Program-made: the position numbers and the translations under genes
The notes under the pieces: model-generated
What the model was told of the DNA's origin: nothing
The model's database searches: none
Seen by the model: only the letters and a program-made list of their open reading frames with translations
Shown here: in pieces, positions 2,412 through 42,416 of the stretch
How the letters are laid out: every line of letters starts with the position of its first letter
How positions within the stretch are numbered: position 1 is the first letter of the stretch
Source: an uncultured Actinomycetota bacterium
Lineage (GTDB): Bacteria; Actinomycetota; Actinomycetes; Mycobacteriales; SCTD01
Assembly (NCBI GenBank): GCA_963726975.1
Contig: CAVSEK010000013.1
Span: 680,773 to 744,772 of the forward strand
Length of the DNA stretch: 64,000 nucleotides
Direction of reading: 5' to 3'

Positions 2412-2483
2412 GGCCGGGTGGCCGAGTGGCTTAGGCAAGGGACTGCAAATCCCTCTACGCGGGTTCGATTCCCGCCCCGGCCC
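2412..2483 (+). tRNA. tRNA-Cys(GCA)
   Basis: Acceptor GGCCGGG/CCCGGCC, anticodon arm AGGGA-CTGCAAA-TCCCT, T-arm GCGGG-TTCGATT-CCCGC. Confidence 0.95.
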
Positions 2484-36412: not shown

Positions 36413-37451
36413 GGTCGCCGCGCAGCGGGGCCGTCGCGAACTCGCGCATCCCGTCGGCGAACCCGACCTGCGCGCGGAAGCCGAGCTCGCGCGCGGCCCG
36501 CTCGGGGCTCGCGACGACGTGCCGCACGTCGCCGAGGCGGTACTGCCCCGTCACGACCGGCGCCGGACCGTCCGCCGCGATCGCGGTCGCGACGTCGGCG
36601 ATGGTGTGCGGCGTGCCGCTGGAGACGTTGTAGGCCGTGAGCGACCCCGGGGTGCCGGAGGCCGTGAGCGCCCGCAGGTTCGCCTGGGCGACGTCGCGCA
36701 CGTGCACGAAGTCGCGCTGCTGCCCGCCGTCCTCGTAGACCCGCGGCGCCTCGCCGCGGGCGACCGCGCTGCGGAACAGGCTCGCGACCCCGGCGTACGG
36801 GGTGTCGCGCGGCATGTGCGGGCCGTAGACGTTGTGGTAGCGCAGCGCGAGGCAGCTGCCGCCGCTCTGCCGCGCCCAGGACGCCGCGAGGTGCTCCTGC
36901 GCCGTCTTGGTGGCCGCGTAGACGCTGCGCGGGTCGACGGGCGCGTCCTCCGGCACGAGCCCCCAGGCGAGGTCGCGGCCGCACACAGGGCACGGCGGCT
37001 CCCAGCGACCGGCGTCGAGGTCGGCCTGCGCGCGCGGGAGCGGCCGGACGACGCCGTGCTCGGGGCAGGTGTAGCGGCCCTCGCCGTAGACGACCATCGA
37101 GCTGGCCAGCACCAGGCGACCGGTGCCCTCCCGGTCCATGGCCGCCAGCACCTCGGCGGTCCCCAGCTCGTTGACGCCGACGTAGAGCGGCAGGTCCTGC
37201 AGGTCGAGCCCGAGACCCACGACCGCCGCCTGGTGGCACACCGCGTCGATCCCGTCGAGGACGCCGTCGGGCAGCGCCCGCACGTCGCCGTGGACCCGCT
37301 CCGCGCGCCCGTCGAGGTGCTCCGGCCAGCCGCCCGGGTGCACCTCGGGGAGCAGCGCGTCGAGGACGCGCACCTCGTGGCCGTCGTCGAGCAGCGCCTC
37401 GACCACGTGCCCGCCGATGAAGCCGGCGCCGCCGGTGACCAGGACCCTCAC
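36405..37451 (-). CDS. NAD-dependent epimerase/dehydratase with Cys/His insert
   Basis: VTGGAGFIG, ASSMVVYGEG, CPEHG...CPVCG insert, YAATK, LRYHNVYGP, RDFVHVRD. Confidence 0.9.
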   Translation of the reverse strand: MRVLVTGGAGFIGGHVVEALLDDGHEVRVLDALLPEVHPGGWPEHLDGRAERVHGDVRALPDGVLDGIDAVCHQAAVVGLGLDLQDLPLYVGVNELGTAEVLAAMDREGTGRLVLASSMVVYGEGRYTCPEHGVVRPLPRAQADLDAGRWEPPCPVCGRDLAWGLVPEDAPVDPRSVYAATKTAQEHLAASWARQSGGSCLALRYHNVYGPHMPRDTPYAGVASLFRSAVARGEAPRVYEDGGQQRDFVHVRDVAQANLRALTASGTPGSLTAYNVSSGTPHTIADVATAIAADGPAPVVTGQYRLGDVRHVVASPERAARELGFRAQVGFADGMREFATAPLRGDRA

Positions 37452-37538
37452 CGGGCGAGCCTGCCACGGCGCGCCGTGGCCGCCCACGTGGGGCAGGCTG
37501 GGGCCGGAGCGCGCCGCGGGGCGCGGAGCGGAGGAACG

Positions 37539-38135
37539 GTGGACGCGGCGAGCGCAGGGGACCTGCCCGACCGGGACGACGTCGTGGGCTGGCCGGGGCG
37601 CGCGGTCGTCGACCCGGCCGGCAACGCCGTCGGCCGCTGCCGCGCCGTCTACGCCGACGACGACAGCGGTGACCCGCGCTGGCTGGTCGTCGACCTCGAC
37701 GACGGGCTGTCGCCCTTCGTCCCGCTGGCCGGGGCGACCCGCTCCGGGGAGCGGGTCGTCGTCGCCCACCGGCAGGAGCGCGTGGTCGGCGCGCCCGTGG
37801 TGCCGGACACCGGGCAGCTGCGGCCGGAGCAGGAGGCCGAGCTCTACGAGCACTACGGCGTCGCCTACGCGCGCCCGTCCGACGGCAGCTCGCCCGCGCC
37901 GACCGGGCGCCCCTCCTCCCCCGCGCCCGGCGCAGCCACCGCACCGGCCCCCGAGCCCGGCCCGGCCCCGGTCCACGCGCCGCTCGTGCCGCGCGGCCCC
38001 GACCCGGGGTCGGCGCCCTCGGCAGCGCCGCCCGACGCCGGACCCGGCCGCCGCTCCCGCCTGCTGCTCGTCGCCGCGGTGGTGCTGGGCGTGCTGGTGC
38101 TGCGCCGGCGGCGCCGGGTCCCGCGCACTGGCTAG
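37539..38135 (+). CDS. PRC-barrel domain protein with C-terminal TM anchor
   Basis: VVDPAGNAVG...VYADDDSGDPRWLVV...FVPL...EQEAELYEHYG; RBS GAGGA. Confidence 0.75.
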   Translation: MDAASAGDLPDRDDVVGWPGRAVVDPAGNAVGRCRAVYADDDSGDPRWLVVDLDDGLSPFVPLAGATRSGERVVVAHRQERVVGAPVVPDTGQLRPEQEAELYEHYGVAYARPSDGSSPAPTGRPSSPAPGAATAPAPEPGPAPVHAPLVPRGPDPGSAPSAAPPDAGPGRRSRLLLVAAVVLGVLVLRRRRRVPRTG

Positions 38136-38145
38136 CCTCGCCCGG

Positions 38146-39432
38146 GTGACCGCTCCGGCCTCCGACCTGTCCCTCGGCGACGACCTCCGCGCGTTCGTCG
38201 ACGCCTCCCCGTCGCCGACGCACGCGGTGGCAGAGGTCGTCCGGCGGCTGTCGGCGTCCGGGTTCCGCGCGCTCGACGAGCGCGACCTCTGGTCTCTGAC
38301 GCCCGGCGACGCCCGCTTCGTCGTGCGCGACGGCGGCAGCGTGGTCGCGTTCCGCGTCGGCACCGCCCCGGTCGCCGAGGCCGGGCTGCGGCTGGTCGGC
38401 GCGCACACCGACTCGCCGACGTTCAAGGTCCGCCCGCGCTGGGACGTGCGCCGGGCCGGCTACCGCCAGGTCGGGGTCGAGCCGTACGGCGGTCTGCTCG
38501 CCCACACCTGGCTCGACCGCGAGCTGACCGTCGCCGGGCGCCTCGTCGTCCGGGGCGGCGCCGTCGTGCCGGTGGTGCTGCCCGGCGCCCCGCTGCGGCT
38601 GCCGTCGCTGGCGATCCACCTGGACCGCAGCGTCCGGGAGGGCCTGACCCTCGACCCGCAGCGCCACCTCGTGCCGCTGTGGGGGCCGGAGCTGTCCAGC
38701 GAGCCCGGGCTGCTCGAGGCGCTGGCCGACGCCGCGGGGGTCGACGTCGGCGACGTGGTCGGCCACGACCTCGTGCTCGCCGACCCGCTGCCCGCGGCCC
38801 GGACCGGCTCCGACGGGACGTGGGTCGCTGCGCCGCGCCTGGACGACCTGGCCTGCTGCCACTCGGGGACGGCCGCGCTGCTGGCGGCGCAGGTGGCCGC
38901 GCACACCCAGGTGCTGGTCGCCAACGACCACGAGGAGGTCGGCAGCGGCTCCGCCGAGGGCGCCCGCGGGTCCTTCCTCGCCGACGTGCTCGCCCGCCTC
39001 GTCGCGGCCACCGGCGACCCGGACGCTCAGGCGGTGCACCGGGCCGTCGCGCGGTCGCGGCTGGTGTCGGCCGACATGGCCCACGCCGTGCACCCCAACC
39101 ACGCCGAGCGGCACGAGCCGATGCACGCGCCCGCCCTCGGGGGCGGCCCCGTCCTCAAGCTCAACGCCAACCAGTCGTACGCCACCGACGCCGTCTCGGG
39201 CGGCTGGTTCGCCGAGCGGTGCGCCGGCGCGGGCGTGCCGGTGCAGCACTTCGTCACCCGTGCCGACCTGCCGTGCGGCTCGACGATCGGGCCGCTCACC
39301 GCCACGCGGCTGGGGATCGCGACGGTCGACGTGGGCGCGCCGATGCTCGCGATGCACTCGTGCCGCGAGGTGGCGTCGGCGCTCGACGTCCCGCTCATGG
39401 TGCGCGCGCTGACCGCCTGCCTGCAGGACTGA
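38146..39432 (+). CDS. M18 family (aspartyl) aminopeptidase
   Basis: ASPSPTHAV, GAHTDSP, WLDREL, RLDDL, DHEEVGS, SADMAHAVHPN, CGSTIGP, LAMHS. Confidence 0.93.
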   Translation: MTAPASDLSLGDDLRAFVDASPSPTHAVAEVVRRLSASGFRALDERDLWSLTPGDARFVVRDGGSVVAFRVGTAPVAEAGLRLVGAHTDSPTFKVRPRWDVRRAGYRQVGVEPYGGLLAHTWLDRELTVAGRLVVRGGAVVPVVLPGAPLRLPSLAIHLDRSVREGLTLDPQRHLVPLWGPELSSEPGLLEALADAAGVDVGDVVGHDLVLADPLPAARTGSDGTWVAAPRLDDLACCHSGTAALLAAQVAAHTQVLVANDHEEVGSGSAEGARGSFLADVLARLVAATGDPDAQAVHRAVARSRLVSADMAHAVHPNHAERHEPMHAPALGGGPVLKLNANQSYATDAVSGGWFAERCAGAGVPVQHFVTRADLPCGSTIGPLTATRLGIATVDVGAPMLAMHSCREVASALDVPLMVRALTACLQD

Positions 39433-39441
39433 GCCGGCCGC

Positions 39442-39954
39442 TCACCGGCTGACGGCGGCGACCACCCGGGCGTACGCCTCGTCGGCGACCGCGACGAGCT
39501 CGTCGTCGGTGCGGTCCTGCACGGGGTGCGGCACGAAGACGCAGGCGGCCGGGAAGCCCAGCGACGCGCTCTGGGCGGCGACGGCGTCGACGAAGACGCT
39601 GCTGGCGAGGAACACCCCCACCACGCCGCGGCGCTCGAGGTCGGCGATGTCGTGCACACTGCACGACGTGCACGAGCCTCAATCGGCGAGCGCCTCGATG
39701 ACCACCTCGCACTGCTCGGCGATCTCGTGCCGCAGGTCGACCGGCGCGGGTCGGGCGAAGGTCGGCTTGCGGTAGCGGCGGACCAGCGCGCCGTCGCGCT
39801 CGAGCAGCTCGGCGAGCCGGTCGAGCACGACGTCGCCGCGGGCCTTGCTGATGTCGAGCAGGCCGACGCGGCGGCCGGCGAGCCCGTCGGGCCGGGGCAG
39901 CAGCCCGCGCTGCGCCGGACGCTGCTCCCCTGTCGGGTCGAGCACGACGGTCAT
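39442..39954 (-). CDS. UGSC-family selenoprotein (in-frame TGA = Sec at 39679-39681)
   Basis: Upstream ORF ends IEALAD-TGA and the same frame continues GSCTSCSVHDIADLERRG...FVPHPVQDRT to the stop at 39442; SECIS-like hairpin after the TGA. Confidence 0.88.
39649..39667 (-). promoter_or_regulatory. Bacterial SECIS element
   Basis: GUCGUGCA-GUG-UGCACGAC perfect 8-bp stem with a G-containing apical loop, starting after an 11-nt spacer 3' of the UGA. Confidence 0.75.
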
Positions 39955-41345
39955 CCCCGCACCTCCCTCGTCACGGGCACGCTGCCCGACTCACCGCTCA
40001 CCCAGCCGCCGACGACGGCGCTGAACAGCCCGGCGTCGCCGCCCGCGTGCACGACCAGCAGCCCGCCGGGGCGGAACTTGGGCAGGTCGACGCCGGCGTA
40101 CGCCTCCGGCACGCCCTCGGCGTTGCCGCCCGCGCCGCGCGCGATCTCGTCCGCCGGCAGCACCAGCAGCGCCTCGAGCTCGGCGACCAGGCGCGCCCGG
40201 TCCCACCCGGCCTCGCGGAAGACCCGGCCGTGCTCGGGCGACACCACGAGCAGGGCGTCGAAGGCCATCGGCAGCTTGGGGTGGCCGGTGACCCGCAGGC
40301 AGGCCGCGAACGAGCGCGCCAGCGACCCGGGGTCGCGGCTCAGCTGGTCGACGACCGGCTGCACCCCCGCGCCGGCGAACACGGTCACGGCGTCCCCGGG
40401 CACGCCGCGGTCCTGCGCCAGCGGCGCGAACGGGCTGTCGGCCTCGCGCTCGGCGAAGCAGAAGGTGTACTTGCCGGGGTTGCCGAGCACCGCCCGGTCC
40501 ACCTCACCGGGCCGTCCGCCGCCGACGTTGCGCACGACCAGCTGCAGCGCCCTGCCGATCGTCGCGTTGGCCCGGTTGCCCTGCCCGAGCGCGTTGACGC
40601 CGCTGTTCATCCCCACGCGGCGGGCGACGGGACCGTTGACGACGACGACCGGTCCGGAGAAGTACGTCGTGGCGAGCAGCCCGTGCAGCGCGAACGGCTC
40701 GGCGCAGGCCGCCTCGACCGCCGCGAGCACGACCGGCAGGTGCTCGGGCAGGCAGCCGGCGAGCACGGCGTTGACCGCGACCTTCTCGACCGTGCAGGGC
40801 ACGAGGTCCGGCGGCACGACGGCGACGACCTCCTGCGGGTCGCGGGTCGTCCCGCGCAGCATGCGCAGCACCCGCTCGGGCGTGGGAGGGACGACCGGCA
40901 GCCCGTCGGTCCAGCCCCGGTCGTACGCCGCCTCGTGCTCGTCCTCGGCGCTGGCCAGCTCGACCCGCCGGCTGACCAGCCCGTCGCCGTAGCGCGCCTC
41001 GAGCGCGTCGACCCGGTCCGGGTCGACCGACAGGGACCCGCAGCCGGGCCGGTGCTCGGGCAGGTCCTCGCCGAGCCCCTCGCGCCCGGTGAGCTCCTGC
41101 CACTGCTCGCGGCTCCAGCCGACCACCCGGGCGCGCTCCTGCCCGCCCTCGACCCGCAGCAGCGTCGGCACGGTCTCCACGCCGAGGCGCCACGACAGCT
41201 CGAGCGAGGTGTCGTCGCCGTCGAACCACTCCGGGTCGTCCTGGCACCACACCCGGGCGCCGAGGCCGCGCAGCACCGGCTCGACGAGCACGCAGGTCGG
41301 GCAGTCGCGCTTGACGACGGCGACGAGTCCGTCGGGCAGCTCCAC
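39951..41345 (-). CDS. Thioredoxin-like (CxxC) domain fused to an uncharacterised WTDGLPVVPPT domain (UGSC partner)
   Basis: VKRDCPTC, VETVPTL, RPGCGS, GWTDGLPVVPPTPERV, TVEKVAVNAVLAGC, NRANATIGRA; ATGA overlap with the UGSC gene. Confidence 0.85.
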   Translation of the reverse strand: MELPDGLVAVVKRDCPTCVLVEPVLRGLGARVWCQDDPEWFDGDDTSLELSWRLGVETVPTLLRVEGGQERARVVGWSREQWQELTGREGLGEDLPEHRPGCGSLSVDPDRVDALEARYGDGLVSRRVELASAEDEHEAAYDRGWTDGLPVVPPTPERVLRMLRGTTRDPQEVVAVVPPDLVPCTVEKVAVNAVLAGCLPEHLPVVLAAVEAACAEPFALHGLLATTYFSGPVVVVNGPVARRVGMNSGVNALGQGNRANATIGRALQLVVRNVGGGRPGEVDRAVLGNPGKYTFCFAEREADSPFAPLAQDRGVPGDAVTVFAGAGVQPVVDQLSRDPGSLARSFAACLRVTGHPKLPMAFDALLVVSPEHGRVFREAGWDRARLVAELEALLVLPADEIARGAGGNAEGVPEAYAGVDLPKFRPGGLLVVHAGGDAGLFSAVVGGWVSGESGSVPVTREVRG

Positions 41346-41447
41346 GGCCGGACGCTACCGCGGCAGGTGAGGTGGGACGCGCAGCCGGGAAGGGCTCCGG
41401 GCGACGAGGCGGGCCGCCGGCCGCCCAGGACGGACGGAGGACCGACC

Positions 41448-42416
41448 GTGACCCGGTTCGGCTACACGATGATGACCGAGCAGAGCCGCCCCGACCAGCT
41501 CGTGCGCGACCTGCAGGCGGCCGAGGAGGCGGGCTTCGACTTCTCGGTGATCTCCGACCACTACAACCCGTGGCTGGAGTCGCAGGGCCACGCGGGCTAC
41601 GCCTGGTCGATCCTCGGCGCCGCGGCGCAGGCGACCTCGCGGATCCCGCTGATGACGTACGTGACCTGCCCGACCCTGCGCTACCACCCGGCGGTCGTGG
41701 CGCAGAAGGCGGCGACCATGGGCATCCTGTCCGGCGGCCGGTTCCGGCTCGGGCTCGGCGCCGGGGAGAACCTCAACGAGCACGTCGTCGGCAAGCGGCT
41801 GGCCGGCCGTCGGCGTGCGCCACGAGATGCTGTCCGAGGCGGTCGACATCATCACGGCGCTGCTCGACGGGGAGCACGTCAACTACCGCGGCAAGCACTT
41901 CGACGTCGAGAGCGCGAAGCTCTGGGACCTGCCCGACGAGCGCGTGCCGATCGGCATCGCGGTGTCGGGGCAGCGGTCCTGCGACCTGGCCGGCCGCAAG
42001 GCCGACCTCATGATCGCGACCGAGCCGGAGCCGGAGCTCGGCGAGATGTTCGACGCCGCGGGCGGGGCGGGCAAGCCGCGGGTCGGCCAGATCGCCGTCT
42101 GCTACGACCCCGACCGCGACGCCGCCGTGCAGACGGGCGCACGAGCAGTTCCGCTGGTTCGGGCTGGGCTGGAAGGTCAACGCCGACCTGCCGGGCCCGT
42201 CGTCGTTCGAGGCGGCGACGCAGTTCGTCACGCCGGAGCAGGTCGGCGAGCAGCTGCCCTGCGGCGCGGACGTGCAGGAGTACGTCGAGAAGATCAAGCC
42301 GTTCGTCGAGGCGGGCTTCACCGAGGTCGCGCTGGTGCAGATCGGCGCCGAGCGGCCAGGCGGAGTTCTTCCGCTGGGCGCAGGCCGAGCTGCTGCCGGC
42401 GCTGAGGGAGCTGTAG
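41448..42416 (+). CDS. F420-dependent LLM-class oxidoreductase (TIGR03557/G6PDH-F420-like), frameshifted
   Basis: FGYTMMTEQ, ISDHYNPW, VTCPTLRYHPAVVAQ, LGLGAGENLNEH. Confidence 0.88.
   Translation: MTRFGYTMMTEQSRPDQLVRDLQAAEEAGFDFSVISDHYNPWLESQGHAGYAWSILGAAAQATSRIPLMTYVTCPTLRYHPAVVAQKAATMGILSGGRFRLGLGAGENLNEHVVGKRLAGRRRAPRDAVRGGRHHHGAARRGARQLPRQALRRREREALGPARRARADRHRGVGAAVLRPGRPQGRPHDRDRAGAGARRDVRRRGRGGQAAGRPDRRLLRPRPRRRRADGRTSSSAGSGWAGRSTPTCRARRRSRRRRSSSRRSRSASSCPAARTCRSTSRRSSRSSRRASPRSRWCRSAPSGQAEFFRWAQAELLPALREL

What the first reader, a model, noticed from the sequence alone, without database searches (positions are those of the whole stretch)
39442..39954. Hidden UGSC selenoprotein with an in-frame UGA and a SECIS-like hairpin
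Seen: the ORF track splits this gene into 91-aa and 71-aa pieces, but both are in one frame and read EALAD-[TGA]-GSCTSCSVHD. Eleven nt after the TGA comes GTCGTGCA-GTG-TGCACGAC, a perfect stem with a G-containing loop. An alternative pairing TCGTGCAC/GTGCACGA also exists. The surrounding 20.5-41.7 kb block shows no frameshifts, so error is an unlikely explanation. Known: the E. coli fdhF SECIS has an 11-nt spacing, UGSC-motif proteins are a selenoprotein family of unknown function, and Sec use is patchy in Actinobacteria. From memory, some Geodermatophilaceae decode Sec at UAG in this family. Inference: a 170-aa U-G-S-C-x-x-C redox protein that standard gene callers would miss.
Basis: partly seen in the sequence, partly recalled or inferred. 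Interest (0 to 1): 0.85.

Follow-up and report, generated by a model that had tools for sequence, protein, structure and literature searches.

The report
UGSC selenoprotein gene with conserved partner
This is a real but already-known kind of selenium-containing protein gene (UGSC family) whose internal "stop" codon is read as selenocysteine, and it always travels with one uncharacterised partner gene.

Summary
On the minus strand, 39954..39442 is one 170-codon frame with an in-frame TGA at 39679-39681 (EALAD-U-GSCTSC). A perfect 8-bp/3-nt hairpin starts 11 nt after it.

It is a full-length UGSC-family (seleno)protein: NF041046 scores 144.5 bits (cut-off 125) and PF24696 scores 142.9 bits.

The genome holds selD, tRNA-Sec(UCA), selA and selB in one cluster. 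It also has a Sec-type formate dehydrogenase whose SECIS puts G23-U24 at the same distance from UGA.

All 80 related loci have a stop at this column (75 TGA, 5 TAG), and the frame stays open after it. Hairpin codons are frozen at synonymous sites. One relative shows a compensatory C-G to G-C swap, and Cys-form homologues lack the hairpin.

The nearest orthologues, from Blastococcus and Geodermatophilus, use TAG with the same hairpin. This lineage keeps UGA.

Two additions:
- The gene is translationally coupled (ATGA overlap) to a thioredoxin-like + "domain X" protein. That protein is adjacent in 77/80 loci, co-occurs in 26/26 UGSC-positive genomes sampled, and is naturally fused in some.
- The UGSC model is flavodoxin-like, with weak, recurrent similarity to the Sec region of GrdB/PrdB-type reductases.

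The family is known, so novelty is low.

The parts
39442..39954 (-). UGSC-family selenoprotein gene: 170 codons plus terminal TGA at 39442-39444; ATG at 39954-39952
   Evidence: Translation with TGA=U. NF041046 scores 144.5 bits against a 125 cut-off, residues 27-168. PF24696 scores 142.9 bits, residues 4-168. AF2 model pLDDT 93.9.
39679..39681 (-). Sec codon UGA (codon 92), first residue of the U-G-S-C-T-S-C motif
   Evidence: The column is Cys in 12 of 15 full-length database homologues. It is a stop in 80 of 80 related loci: 75 TGA, 5 TAG.
39649..39667 (-). bSECIS apical hairpin: 8-bp stem GUCGUGCA/UGCACGAC, loop G23-U24-G25 (counting U of UGA as 1), 11 nt after the UGA
   Evidence: Identical in 69 of 81 orthologues, and the inner 6 bp are intact in 81 of 81. 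Compensatory C21-G27 to G21-C27 swap in L140.
39637..39681 (-). 45-nt UGA + SECIS stretch, including a predicted lower stem
   Evidence: RNAfold gives -22.2 kcal/mol, z -3.12.
39962..39969 (-). Shine-Dalgarno-like GAGGGAGG, 7 nt upstream of the UGSC ATG, inside the 3' end of the partner gene
   Evidence: Read directly. Inference only.
39951..39954 (-). ATGA overlap of the partner's stop (39953-39951) with the UGSC start (39954-39952): translational coupling
39951..41345 (-). Partner gene, 464 aa (P0123), named 'thioredoxin family protein' in NCBI records of relatives
   Evidence: Directly upstream of the UGSC gene in 77 of 80 loci. AF2 model pLDDT 84.5.
41082..41345 (-). Partner residues 1-88: thioredoxin-fold domain with C15-P-T-C18 (nt 41292-41303)
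   Evidence: VIA Z 8.7, rmsd 2.1, 83 residues aligned to thioredoxin 6z7o_A. Weak Pfam Thioredoxin_2 hit, E 0.0015. C15, T17 and C18 are invariant in 31 sequences.
39954..41033 (-). Partner residues ~105-464: 'domain X', no family model and no clear known fold
   Evidence: No Pfam or NCBIfam hit. Foldseek finds only TM about 0.2 to class-I fumarate hydratase. Homologous (36% identity, E 3e-48) to the C-terminal part of the natural UGSC-X fusion P0264.

Best explanation
Window 39954..39442 (minus strand) encodes a genuine UGSC-family selenoprotein.

Decoding: while the ribosome translates the mRNA, SelB carrying Sec-tRNA(Sec, anticodon UCA) binds the hairpin that starts 11 nt after codon 92. 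It delivers selenocysteine at that UGA. The same codon terminates the protein at 39444-39442, where no hairpin follows.

Product: a 170-aa flavodoxin-like alpha/beta domain. U92 sits at the N-terminal end of helix 93-108, followed by C95 and C98 (U-x-x-C-x-x-C).

Inferred function (my odds about 50%): U92 and C95 form a redox-cycling selenenylsulfide. The protein works as one unit with the translationally coupled upstream gene product. In that partner, 'domain X' would hold the unknown substrate or chemistry, and the N-terminal thioredoxin-like CPTC domain would re-reduce the Se-S bond. This would work like the U-x-x-C Sec domain of GrdB/PrdB-type reductases.

Shown here: family membership, the Sec machinery, SECIS conservation, and the gene pairing and fusion. 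Inferred: actual Se insertion, redox cycling, and physical contact with the partner. The confidence figure refers to the gene being a Sec-decoded UGSC-family gene.
For: Family: NF041046 scores 144.5 bits (cut-off 125) and PF24696 scores 142.9 bits. Both span the TGA.

Machinery in the same genome: selD, tRNA-Sec, selA and selB lie at C4:523120-530757. Each scores over its curated cut-off, and ARAGORN gives anticodon UCA.

Second selenoprotein: formate dehydrogenase alpha with an in-frame TGA at C4:515049, NF041513 1965 bits. Its hairpin loop also places G23-U24.

bSECIS consensus as printed in PMC13188914 section 5. All four constraints are met: loop 3 nt, stem 8 bp, G then U at the first loop positions, 19 nt from UGA to loop, and -22.2 kcal/mol.

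Comparative evidence:
- 80 of 80 loci have a stop at the column: 75 TGA, 5 TAG.
- Of the 75 loci whose motif the script matched, the frame runs 78-88 codons to a stop in 74; in L030 the contig ends first. The five UGSCVSC loci left out of that script also read on to a stop.

Synonymous freezing exactly over the hairpin: Ser+5 TCG 74/74, Cys+6 TGC 81/81, Ser+7 AGT 81/81, Val+8 GTG 81/81, His+9 CAC 76/81, Asp+10 GAC 81/81. Equally invariant flanking residues use 4-6 codons (Ser+2, Ala-4, Arg+17, Gly+18).

Covariation:
- L140 has G21-C27 in place of C21-G27.
- L144 has an unrelated 6-bp stem at the same 11-nt spacing, with GU in the loop.
- Cys-form genes (L132-L138) lack the conserved hairpin and vary freely at those synonymous sites.

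Partner:
- ATGA overlap.
- Adjacent in 77/80 loci.
- In a 401-genome phylum sample, 26/26 UGSC-positive genomes also have domain X, and 34/37 UGSC matches have it within about 0.8 kb on the same strand.
- Natural fusion P0264.

GrdB-like signal: 33/39 members hit GrdF, 32/39 hit GrdB and 15/39 hit TIGR01918, over residues 79-152.
Against: - No experiment shows selenium in this protein.
- No public run holds this organism. The best share of words was 0.12, so the TGA could not be checked in its own reads. Only relatives' contigs were laid.
- The genome is a 13-contig, 88%-complete assembly. The sel genes are on C4 and the UGSC gene is on C13, so their coexistence rests on the bin (contamination 0.64%).
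- Fold energy alone is only moderately unusual: z -1.81 for 63 nt.
- The stem is almost invariant among close orthologues, so covariation rests on a few divergent genes.
- GrdB-type hits are far below the curated cut-offs (15 bits against 602). I could not see the alignment, so I cannot confirm that the Sec columns coincide.
- The fold search gave only generic flavodoxin/Rossmann-like matches, Z 9-12.
- Partner contact is untested.
Confidence: 0.93

Rival explanations
1. The TGA is a genuine nonsense mutation or an assembly or sequencing error, so the gene is a pseudogene or truncated.
For: Gene callers do end the ORF there: 103 of 120 listed database hits cover only the first 51-53% of the query, and the five aligned ones end exactly at EALAD. 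The organism's own reads could not be inspected.
Against: The stop is at the same column in 80 of 80 loci from many genera. In 74 of the 75 loci scanned the frame runs 78-88 codons to a stop (in L030 the contig ends first), and the downstream half matches the family HMM. The downstream half keeps invariant residues (H101, D102, H143, P144...). A complete Sec machinery is present.
Confidence: 0.01
2. There are two separate small genes: a 91-aa product ending at the TGA and a 71-aa product starting at GTG 39657.
For: Both ORFs exist under table 11.
Against: A single-domain HMM match spans both. A single high-confidence AF2 domain (pLDDT 93.9) has its central strand-helix junction at the TGA. The GTG lies inside the conserved hairpin. 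Cys-form homologues are one uninterrupted protein.
Confidence: 0.01
3. The UGA is read through, but by a near-cognate tRNA (Trp or Cys) rather than by Sec-tRNA. The hairpin would be a generic read-through stimulator.
For: Two database proteins carry W (P0004) or R (P0003) at the column. These may reflect other decoding assumptions by gene callers or real substitutions.
Against: The hairpin meets all four bSECIS constraints. It shares the G23-U24 geometry of the genome's own FDH SECIS. The column alternates only with Cys in 12 of 15 full-length homologues. In the nearest relatives the codon changed to TAG, and per PMC5330540 their tRNA-Sec anticodon is CUA. That is what Sec-specific decoding predicts.
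Confidence: 0.03
4. It is a genuine selenoprotein that acts alone as a small thiol/selenol oxidoreductase. The upstream gene would be a mere operon neighbour without physical or catalytic coupling.
For: The literature treats UGSC as a stand-alone redox protein of unknown function (PMC2398784, PMC13188914). No complex prediction could be obtained.
Against: Adjacent in 77/80 loci. Domain X is within about 0.8 kb on the same strand for 34/37 matches, in both gene orders. Co-occurrence is 26/26, and natural fusions exist.
Confidence: 0.2

Closest known systems
UGSC family (seleno)protein (NCBIfam NF041046, Pfam PF24696); the 'UGSC-containing protein' of Zhang and Gladyshev (PMC1976440, PMC2398784)
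   Same: The HMM score is over the curated cut-off. The U-G-S-C motif, the ~170-aa length and the Sec/Cys alternation at the motif's first position all match.
   Different: Nothing essential: this is a member. The literature guessed a Trx-like fold (PMC2398784 passage). The AF2 model here has five parallel beta-alpha units with flavodoxin/Rossmann-like matches.
UAG-encoded UGSC selenoproteins of Geodermatophilaceae (reported by the paper cited as ref 56 in PMC5330540; I saw only the PMC5330540 passage)
   Same: These are the nearest orthologues: 76-81% amino-acid identity. The 19-nt hairpin is identical in L022-L025 and differs by one C-to-T change (a G-U wobble) in L021. The same partner gene sits upstream at 82-87% identity.
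   Different: The codon here is TGA and the tRNA-Sec anticodon is UCA. In the window's own GTDB family, 30 of 30 tRNA-Sec genes examined are UCA, with 55 of 78 genomes having a tRNA-Sec.
Selenoprotein B of glycine/sarcosine/betaine/D-proline reductases (GrdB, GrdF, GrdH, PrdB; TIGR01917, NF040794, NF040795, TIGR01918)
   Same: Both have a U-x-x-C Sec motif (table in PMC9312934). There is recurrent weak HMM similarity of UGSC residues ~79-152 to model positions ~334-406 (33/39, 32/39, 15/39 and 14/39 members; best E 9e-6 to 1e-4).
   Different: Scores are about 15 bits against cut-offs of 600-800, so it is not a member. There is no ~330-aa N-terminal GrdB part. No grdA/grdE-type neighbours were seen among the conserved flanking gene clusters. 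The host is a high-G+C actinobacterium, not a Stickland fermenter.
Escherichia coli fdhF-type bacterial SECIS (features recalled; consensus constraints read in PMC13188914 section 5)
   Same: The hairpin begins 11 nt after the UGA, has a small apical loop with G then U, and lies inside the coding sequence.
   Different: The loop has 3 nt (or 5 nt if the A-U closing pair opens). No bulged U was predicted. The stem sequence is set by the CTSCSVHD codons.

Membership tests
UGSC family (seleno)protein (NF041046 / PF24696) | Whole-protein HMM score at or above the curated cut-off, over the full model | tested here: met
   NF041046: 144.5 bits against 125, model positions 2-146 of 147. PF24696: 142.9 bits against 25, model positions 2-170 of 172.
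UGSC family (seleno)protein (NF041046 / PF24696) | U/C-G-S-C motif at the conserved column | tested here: met
   U92-G-S-C95-T-S-C98. G93, S94, C95 and C98 are invariant in 39 sequences.
Bacterial Sec-decoded gene (selenoprotein) | In-frame UGA aligned with Cys in homologues, with conserved coding sequence downstream | tested here: met
   12 of 15 full-length database homologues have C; one has R, one has W and one is misaligned. 80 of 80 loci have a stop at the column. In 74 of 75 loci scanned the frame runs 78-88 codons to a stop; in L030 the contig ends first.
Bacterial Sec-decoded gene (selenoprotein) | bSECIS downstream: 3-9 nt loop, 4-16 bp stem, G in the first two loop positions, 16-37 nt from UGA to loop, MFE at or below -7.5 kcal/mol (PMC13188914) | tested here: met
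   Loop GUG, 8-bp stem, 19 nt spacing, -22.2 kcal/mol. Synonymous freezing and one compensatory pair.
Bacterial Sec-decoded gene (selenoprotein) | selA, selB, selD and tRNA-Sec with a matching anticodon in the genome | tested here: met
   TIGR00474 414.7 bits, TIGR00475 259.7 bits, TIGR00476 385.6 bits, RF01852 73.8 bits. All are over their cut-offs and lie on contig C4. Anticodon UCA.
Bacterial Sec-decoded gene (selenoprotein) | Selenium demonstrated in the polypeptide | not testable with these tools
   Needs 75Se labelling or mass spectrometry.
UAG-recoded Sec system (Geodermatophilaceae type) | TAG at the Sec column and tRNA-Sec anticodon CUA | tested here: not met
   TGA at 39679-39681. 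Anticodon UCA. TAG is found only in L021-L025.
GrdB/PrdB selenoprotein B (TIGR01917 / TIGR01918 / NF040794) | HMM score over the curated cut-off, and the full ~430-aa architecture | tested here: not met
   15-16 bits against cut-offs of 602-800. Only residues 79-152 align.
Thioredoxin-fold protein (suggested for UGSC in PMC2398784) | Thioredoxin fold of the UGSC domain | tested here: inconclusive
   The AF2 model shows E-H repeated five times. The 50 best VIA rows (Z 9.2-12.1) and the Foldseek list are flavodoxin, CheY, Rossmann or B12-binding-like, and no thioredoxin is listed. Absence from a list does not exclude the fold.
Thioredoxin family (partner gene, N-terminal domain) | Thioredoxin fold with a CxxC motif at the start of helix 1 | tested here: met
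   VIA Z 8.7, rmsd 2.1, 83 residues aligned. CPTC is at residues 15-18 and helix 16-28 follows. Sequence HMMs are only weak: E 0.0015 and 0.032, below cut-offs.

The most novel reading that the evidence does not exclude
UGSC plus 'domain X' (with or without a thioredoxin-like head) is an obligate two-part selenoenzyme, widespread in aerobic Actinomycetota. Its Sec domain is a free-standing evolutionary relative of the Sec-bearing C-terminal region of the GrdB/PrdB reductases. Domain X would bind a still unknown substrate that the Sec attacks, and the built-in thioredoxin domain would recycle the resulting Se-S bond. That would give the abundant, 20-year-old 'function unknown' UGSC family a concrete, testable enzyme architecture. 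In addition, this lineage would be the UGA-using sister of the UAG-recoded Geodermatophilaceae, with an unchanged SECIS. That pair would allow a natural before-and-after comparison of Sec codon reassignment.
Probability: 0.3. Interest if true: 0.55.

Novelty: new member of a known kind. Interest (0 to 1): 0.3.

Why it matters
For annotation, this is a clear case in which a real 170-aa protein is split or truncated by standard gene calling. In the protein database, 103 of 120 listed relatives are calls that cover only the first 51-53% of the query.

For biology, the gene itself is an ordinary member of a family described since 2007-2008. That family has curated HMMs but still no known function. 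This look-up adds three things:

1. The family is tied to one partner. That means adjacency in 77/80 loci, co-occurrence in 26/26 sampled genomes, both gene orders, and natural fusions. This names the protein to co-express and assay.
2. The predicted fold and the weak GrdB/PrdB-like signal point to a reductase-type U-x-x-C chemistry rather than a thioredoxin fold.
3. This lineage keeps UGA and tRNA-Sec(UCA), while its nearest orthologues use UAG with the same hairpin. That is useful for studying how Sec codons get reassigned.

Tried and rejected
- Rfam scan of 39300-40100 at E up to 10 gave only chance miRNA/sRNA rows and no SECIS family. This says nothing, because bacterial SECIS elements are poorly covered.

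- PDB sequence search with the UGSC protein gave no relative; best E was 0.1.

- Fold searches of the UGSC model gave only generic alpha/beta sandwiches: Foldseek TM at most 0.52, VIA Z at most 12.1. I read no function from them.

- Fold searches of the partner model found the thioredoxin domain only. The Foldseek rows for class-I fumarate hydratase (TM about 0.2, rmsd about 17) are rejected as unreliable.

- Flanking genes across the 80 loci are lineage-specific and none is present beside the window's pair. They include an alpha/beta hydrolase, a HhH-GPD glycosylase, a MaoC-like protein, the LPG synthase TM region and a 390-aa ORF without a family.

- The promoter/terminator consensus scan of 39300-41700 found nothing.

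- My genome-wide scan for TGA-split ORFs with high GC3 gave 120 candidates. Nearly all were noise. Only the FDH and the UGSC gene were followed up.

- Sequencing runs: no run holds more than 0.12 of the words. Laying X1, X2, X17 and X15 showed only short contigs of relatives.
  - No listed difference falls between 39629 and 39714, but 45 rows were not shown.
  - One 82-nt contig from an RNA library (39634-39715, 0 differences) is not proof of transcription.
  - I draw no habitat or expression claim from this.

Figure S1A of PMC2398784 (UGSC/Unknown_1 fusion) could not be seen, so equating Unknown_1 with domain X is my inference.

- Literature: the 'UGSC' + 'selenoprotein' search found 9 papers.
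  - I read UGSC passages in 7: PMC2398784, PMC13188914, PMC5330540, PMC9312934, PMC1976440, PMC7539508 and PMC9402790.
  - None of those passages describes the partner gene or a GrdB relation.
  - PMC5029168 and PMC7435645 were seen only in the listing.
  - The original paper on UAG-Sec was not in the library under my two searches.

Full report
**1. Observation**

The gene is on the minus strand. Reading 39954..39442 with TGA=U gives one 170-residue frame. It ends ...CEVVIEALAD-U-GSCTSCSVHDIADLE... around an internal TGA at 39679-39681 (codon 92). A terminal TGA lies at 39444-39442.

Eleven nucleotides after the TGA lies GUCGUGCA-GUG-UGCACGAC, at 39667..39649. Such perfect 8-bp hairpins occur 68 times in the window, against a mean of 28.2 in shuffles. 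The chance of one in the right place is therefore about 1%. The 45 nt from the UGA fold to -22.2 kcal/mol, z -3.12. A 63-nt stretch gives z -1.81. On its own this is suggestive, not decisive.

**2. What the protein is**

The read-through product is a full-length member of the UGSC family. NCBIfam NF041046 'UGSC family (seleno)protein' scores 144.5 bits against a curated cut-off of 125. Pfam PF24696 scores 142.9 bits. Both matches span the TGA.

The protein database returned 2810 hits. Of the 120 listed:
- 103 cover only the first 51-53% of the query, and nearly all of these are 94-118 aa long.
- 16 cover at least 88% of the query.

I aligned five of the short ones. All five stop exactly at EALAD. 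Of 15 full-length homologues aligned, 12 have Cys at the column, one has R, one has W and one is misaligned.

The family is well known in print. [quoted passage not shown]

**3. Sec machinery**

The window's genome is 3.42 Mb in 13 contigs, 88% complete with 0.64% contamination. One region of contig C4 carries:
- selD, 385.6 bits
- tRNA-Sec, 73.8 bits, anticodon UCA by ARAGORN
- selA, 414.7 bits
- selB, 259.7 bits

Each scores over its curated cut-off.

A crude scan for TGA-split frames found a second selenoprotein gene 9 kb upstream of that cluster. It is a formate dehydrogenase alpha subunit with TGA at C4:515049, scoring 1965 bits on NF041513. The Sec system is therefore present and in use.

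One caveat applies. The sel genes and the UGSC gene lie on different contigs of a binned assembly.

**4. The hairpin is a SECIS**

(a) It satisfies all four constraints of the bacterial SECIS consensus printed in PMC13188914 section 5. The loop has 3 nt and the stem 8 bp. G then U occupy the first loop positions. There are 19 nt between UGA and loop, and the MFE is well below -7.5 kcal/mol.

(b) Counting the U of UGA as 1, the loop is G23-U24-G25. The genome's own FDH hairpin has a 12-nt spacer, a 6-bp stem and the loop G22-G23-U24-C25-U26. It puts G23-U24 at exactly the same place. From memory, these are also the SelB-contact positions in E. coli fdhF. That point is recalled, not tested.

(c) I compared 81 orthologues: the window plus 80 loci from genome contigs. 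The codons forming the hairpin are frozen at synonymous sites:

| Codon | Usage |
|---|---|
| Ser+5 | TCG 74/74 |
| Cys+6 | TGC 81/81 |
| Ser+7 | AGT 81/81 |
| Val+8 | GTG 81/81 |
| His+9 | CAC 76/81 |
| Asp+10 | GAC 81/81 |

Equally invariant residues outside the hairpin use many codons. Ser+2 has six codons, Ala-4 four, Val-7 four, Arg+17 five and Gly+18 four.

The 19-nt hairpin is identical in 69 of 81. Six have U16A, five have C30U (a G-U wobble) and one has two outer changes. The inner six pairs are intact in 81 of 81.

(d) More distant Sec-form genes from a phylum sample keep the structure with different letters:
- L140 has G21-C27 instead of C21-G27, a compensatory double change that also changes Cys to Trp and Val to Leu.
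- L144 has an unrelated 6-bp stem GCCCGC/GCGGGC, again 11 nt after the UGA, with GU in the loop.
- L141-L143 have a 4+3-bp hairpin with loop CGUGC.

(e) Seven Cys-form genes (L132-L138) lack a conserved hairpin at this place and vary freely at the same synonymous sites.

I reject it.

**5. Codon identity among relatives**

All 80 loci have a stop at the Sec column: 75 TGA and 5 TAG. A script covered the 75 loci with the commonest motif. In 74 of them the frame runs on 78-88 codons to a stop; in L030 the contig ends after 73 codons. The five UGSCVSC loci left out of that script also read on to a stop.

The five TAG loci are the nearest orthologues, at 76-81% identity. They come from Blastococcus and Geodermatophilus records. 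L022-L025 have the identical hairpin, and L021 has the C30U variant. This matches the passage in PMC5330540 saying that Geodermatophilaceae have tRNA-Sec(CUA) and UAG-encoded FDH and UGSC selenoproteins.

The window's lineage differs. Its own tRNA-Sec is UCA. In its GTDB family, 55 of 78 genomes have a tRNA-Sec, and all 30 I examined are UCA. So this is a UGA-using close relative of the UAG-recoded clade.

Sec use is patchy. UGSC was found in 26 of 401 evenly sampled genomes of the phylum. Of the 37 matches, 26 have one TGA inside and 11 have none.

**6. Fold and distant relatives**

AF2 with a 39-sequence alignment gives a confident single domain: pLDDT 93.9, pTM 0.88. It has five strand-helix units. 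U92 lies between strand 84-90 and helix 93-108, so U92, C95 and C98 sit on the first turns of a helix.

Structure searches return only generic flavodoxin, CheY, Rossmann or B12-binding-like sandwiches, at VIA Z 9.2-12.1. No thioredoxin appears among the listed rows.

At the sequence level, residues ~79-152 give weak but recurrent hits to the Sec-bearing C-terminal region of 'protein B' selenoproteins:
- GrdF in 33 of 39 members
- GrdB in 32 of 39
- TIGR01918 in 15 of 39
- GrdH in 14 of 39

Best E-values are 9e-6 to 1e-4, at model positions ~334-406. Those families also carry U-x-x-C (PMC9312934 table). The scores are far below the cut-offs. This is a lead to common ancestry or mechanism, not membership.

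**7. The partner**

The UGSC ATG overlaps the stop of the upstream gene (ATGA, 39954-39951). A GAGGGAGG lies 7 nt upstream.

That 464-aa protein (39951..41345, minus strand) has a thioredoxin-fold head: residues 1-88, CPTC at 15-18, VIA Z 8.7. It also has a ~360-aa 'domain X' with no Pfam or NCBIfam model and no convincing fold match. Relatives are named 'thioredoxin family protein' in NCBI records.

The linkage evidence is as follows.
- It lies directly upstream of the UGSC gene in 77 of 80 loci. Two of the three misses have no upstream flank.
- In the 401-genome sample, 26 of 26 UGSC-positive genomes also have domain X. Three further genomes have X only.
- 34 of 37 UGSC matches have an X match within about 0.8 kb on the same strand, in either order (X then UGSC, or UGSC then X).
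- Only the window's subfamily, 15 matches, includes the thioredoxin head.
- Natural fusions exist. P0264 (575 aa) is a UGSC-like Cys form followed by domain X, at 36% identity and E 3e-48 to partner residues 111-381.
- Sec-containing open frames of ~590-600 aa occur in G107 and G379.
- The nearest named Atlas clusters to domain X are ones where 16-41% of members carry PF24696 (a lead only).

The 'UGSC/Unknown_1 fusion' of PMC2398784 is probably this. I could not see its supplementary figure.

**8. Mechanism**

Shown here: family membership, the decoding apparatus, a SECIS under RNA-level selection, and an obligate genomic partnership with domain X.

Inferred:
- SelB with Sec-tRNA(UCA) binds the hairpin and inserts Sec at codon 92. 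The identical codon at the 3' end terminates because no hairpin follows it.
- U92 and C95 cycle between selenol/thiol and selenenylsulfide.
- Domain X provides the substrate site.
- In this subfamily the fused thioredoxin head recycles the Se-S bond, in the manner proposed for U-x-x-C in PrdB/GrdB (recalled).

My odds are about 93-95% that this is a Sec-decoded UGSC gene, and about 50% for the coupled-reductase picture.

**9. Limits**

- No public run holds this organism, so its own reads were not checked.
- Paper supplements are closed.

**10. Verdict**

The gene is an ordinary new member of a known, HMM-modelled selenoprotein family, so novelty is low. The conserved partner, the non-thioredoxin fold with its GrdB-like signal, and the UGA/UAG sister relationship are modest additions that make the family's unknown function more testable.

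Noticed in passing
G000:C4:514482-517917 (+), locus L131:983-4417; TGA at C4:515049: A second selenoprotein gene in the genome. It is a formate dehydrogenase alpha subunit (NF041513, 1965 bits) with in-frame TGA (…ENQARI-U-HSATVPGLG…). Its SECIS has a 12-nt spacer, a 6-bp stem and the loop GGUCU. It lies about 5 kb from selD, 6 kb from tRNA-Sec and 10.5 kb from selA.
   Followed up: partly
window 39682-39684 (codon -1 of the Sec codon), and L021-L100: The Asp codon just before the Sec codon is GAT in 76 of 81 orthologues. This is despite very high G+C, and compares with GAC 81/81 at Asp+10 and a 44:35 split at Asp+13. It may reflect a context preference for a U before UGA/UAG.
   Followed up: no
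L027:1412-2581 and 42 other loci: A 390-aa ORF with no Pfam or NCBIfam family lies directly upstream of the partner gene in 43 of 80 loci, mostly Acidimicrobiia-type records. It is not beside the window's pair. It may be a third member of the module in those lineages.
   Followed up: partly
G107:C5:102548-103672, G107:C17:18854-19993, G379:C1:633445-634779: These are open frames of 589-604 aa containing one TGA, in which a UGSC-like domain is followed by domain X. They look like Sec-containing fused forms. For L145 and L146 my motif pattern found no U/C-G-S-C, so their motif differs.
   Followed up: partly
proteins P0003 and P0004: Two database proteins, 63% identical to the window's in the alignment, read R and W at the Sec column. 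These may be real substitutions, or gene calls made under another code (TGA=W). Not resolved.
   Followed up: no
window 37417-39432 (+): An M18-family aminopeptidase (NF002759, 512.8 bits, residues 255-670 of the long ORF) converges on the UGSC gene. The two stop codons are only 9 nt apart, with a short GCCGG…CCGGC inverted repeat between them.
   Followed up: partly
window ~41460-42416 (+): Divergent from the partner gene, the + strand translation contains a stretch that looks like a luciferase-like (F420-dependent) oxidoreductase. This is judged by eye only; no family search was run.
   Followed up: no
window 2412-2482 (G000:C13:683184-683254): A sub-threshold tRNA-Sec model hit (44 bits against a gathering score of 47), one of eight such in the genome. 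It is most likely an ordinary tRNA gene.
   Followed up: no
window 39678 (run X2, table 7): One soil-metagenome contig diverges at 39678 with letters that read as TAG at the Sec column on the coding strand. TAG-type relatives therefore co-occur in soil data. This is a single contig and only a hint.
   Followed up: no
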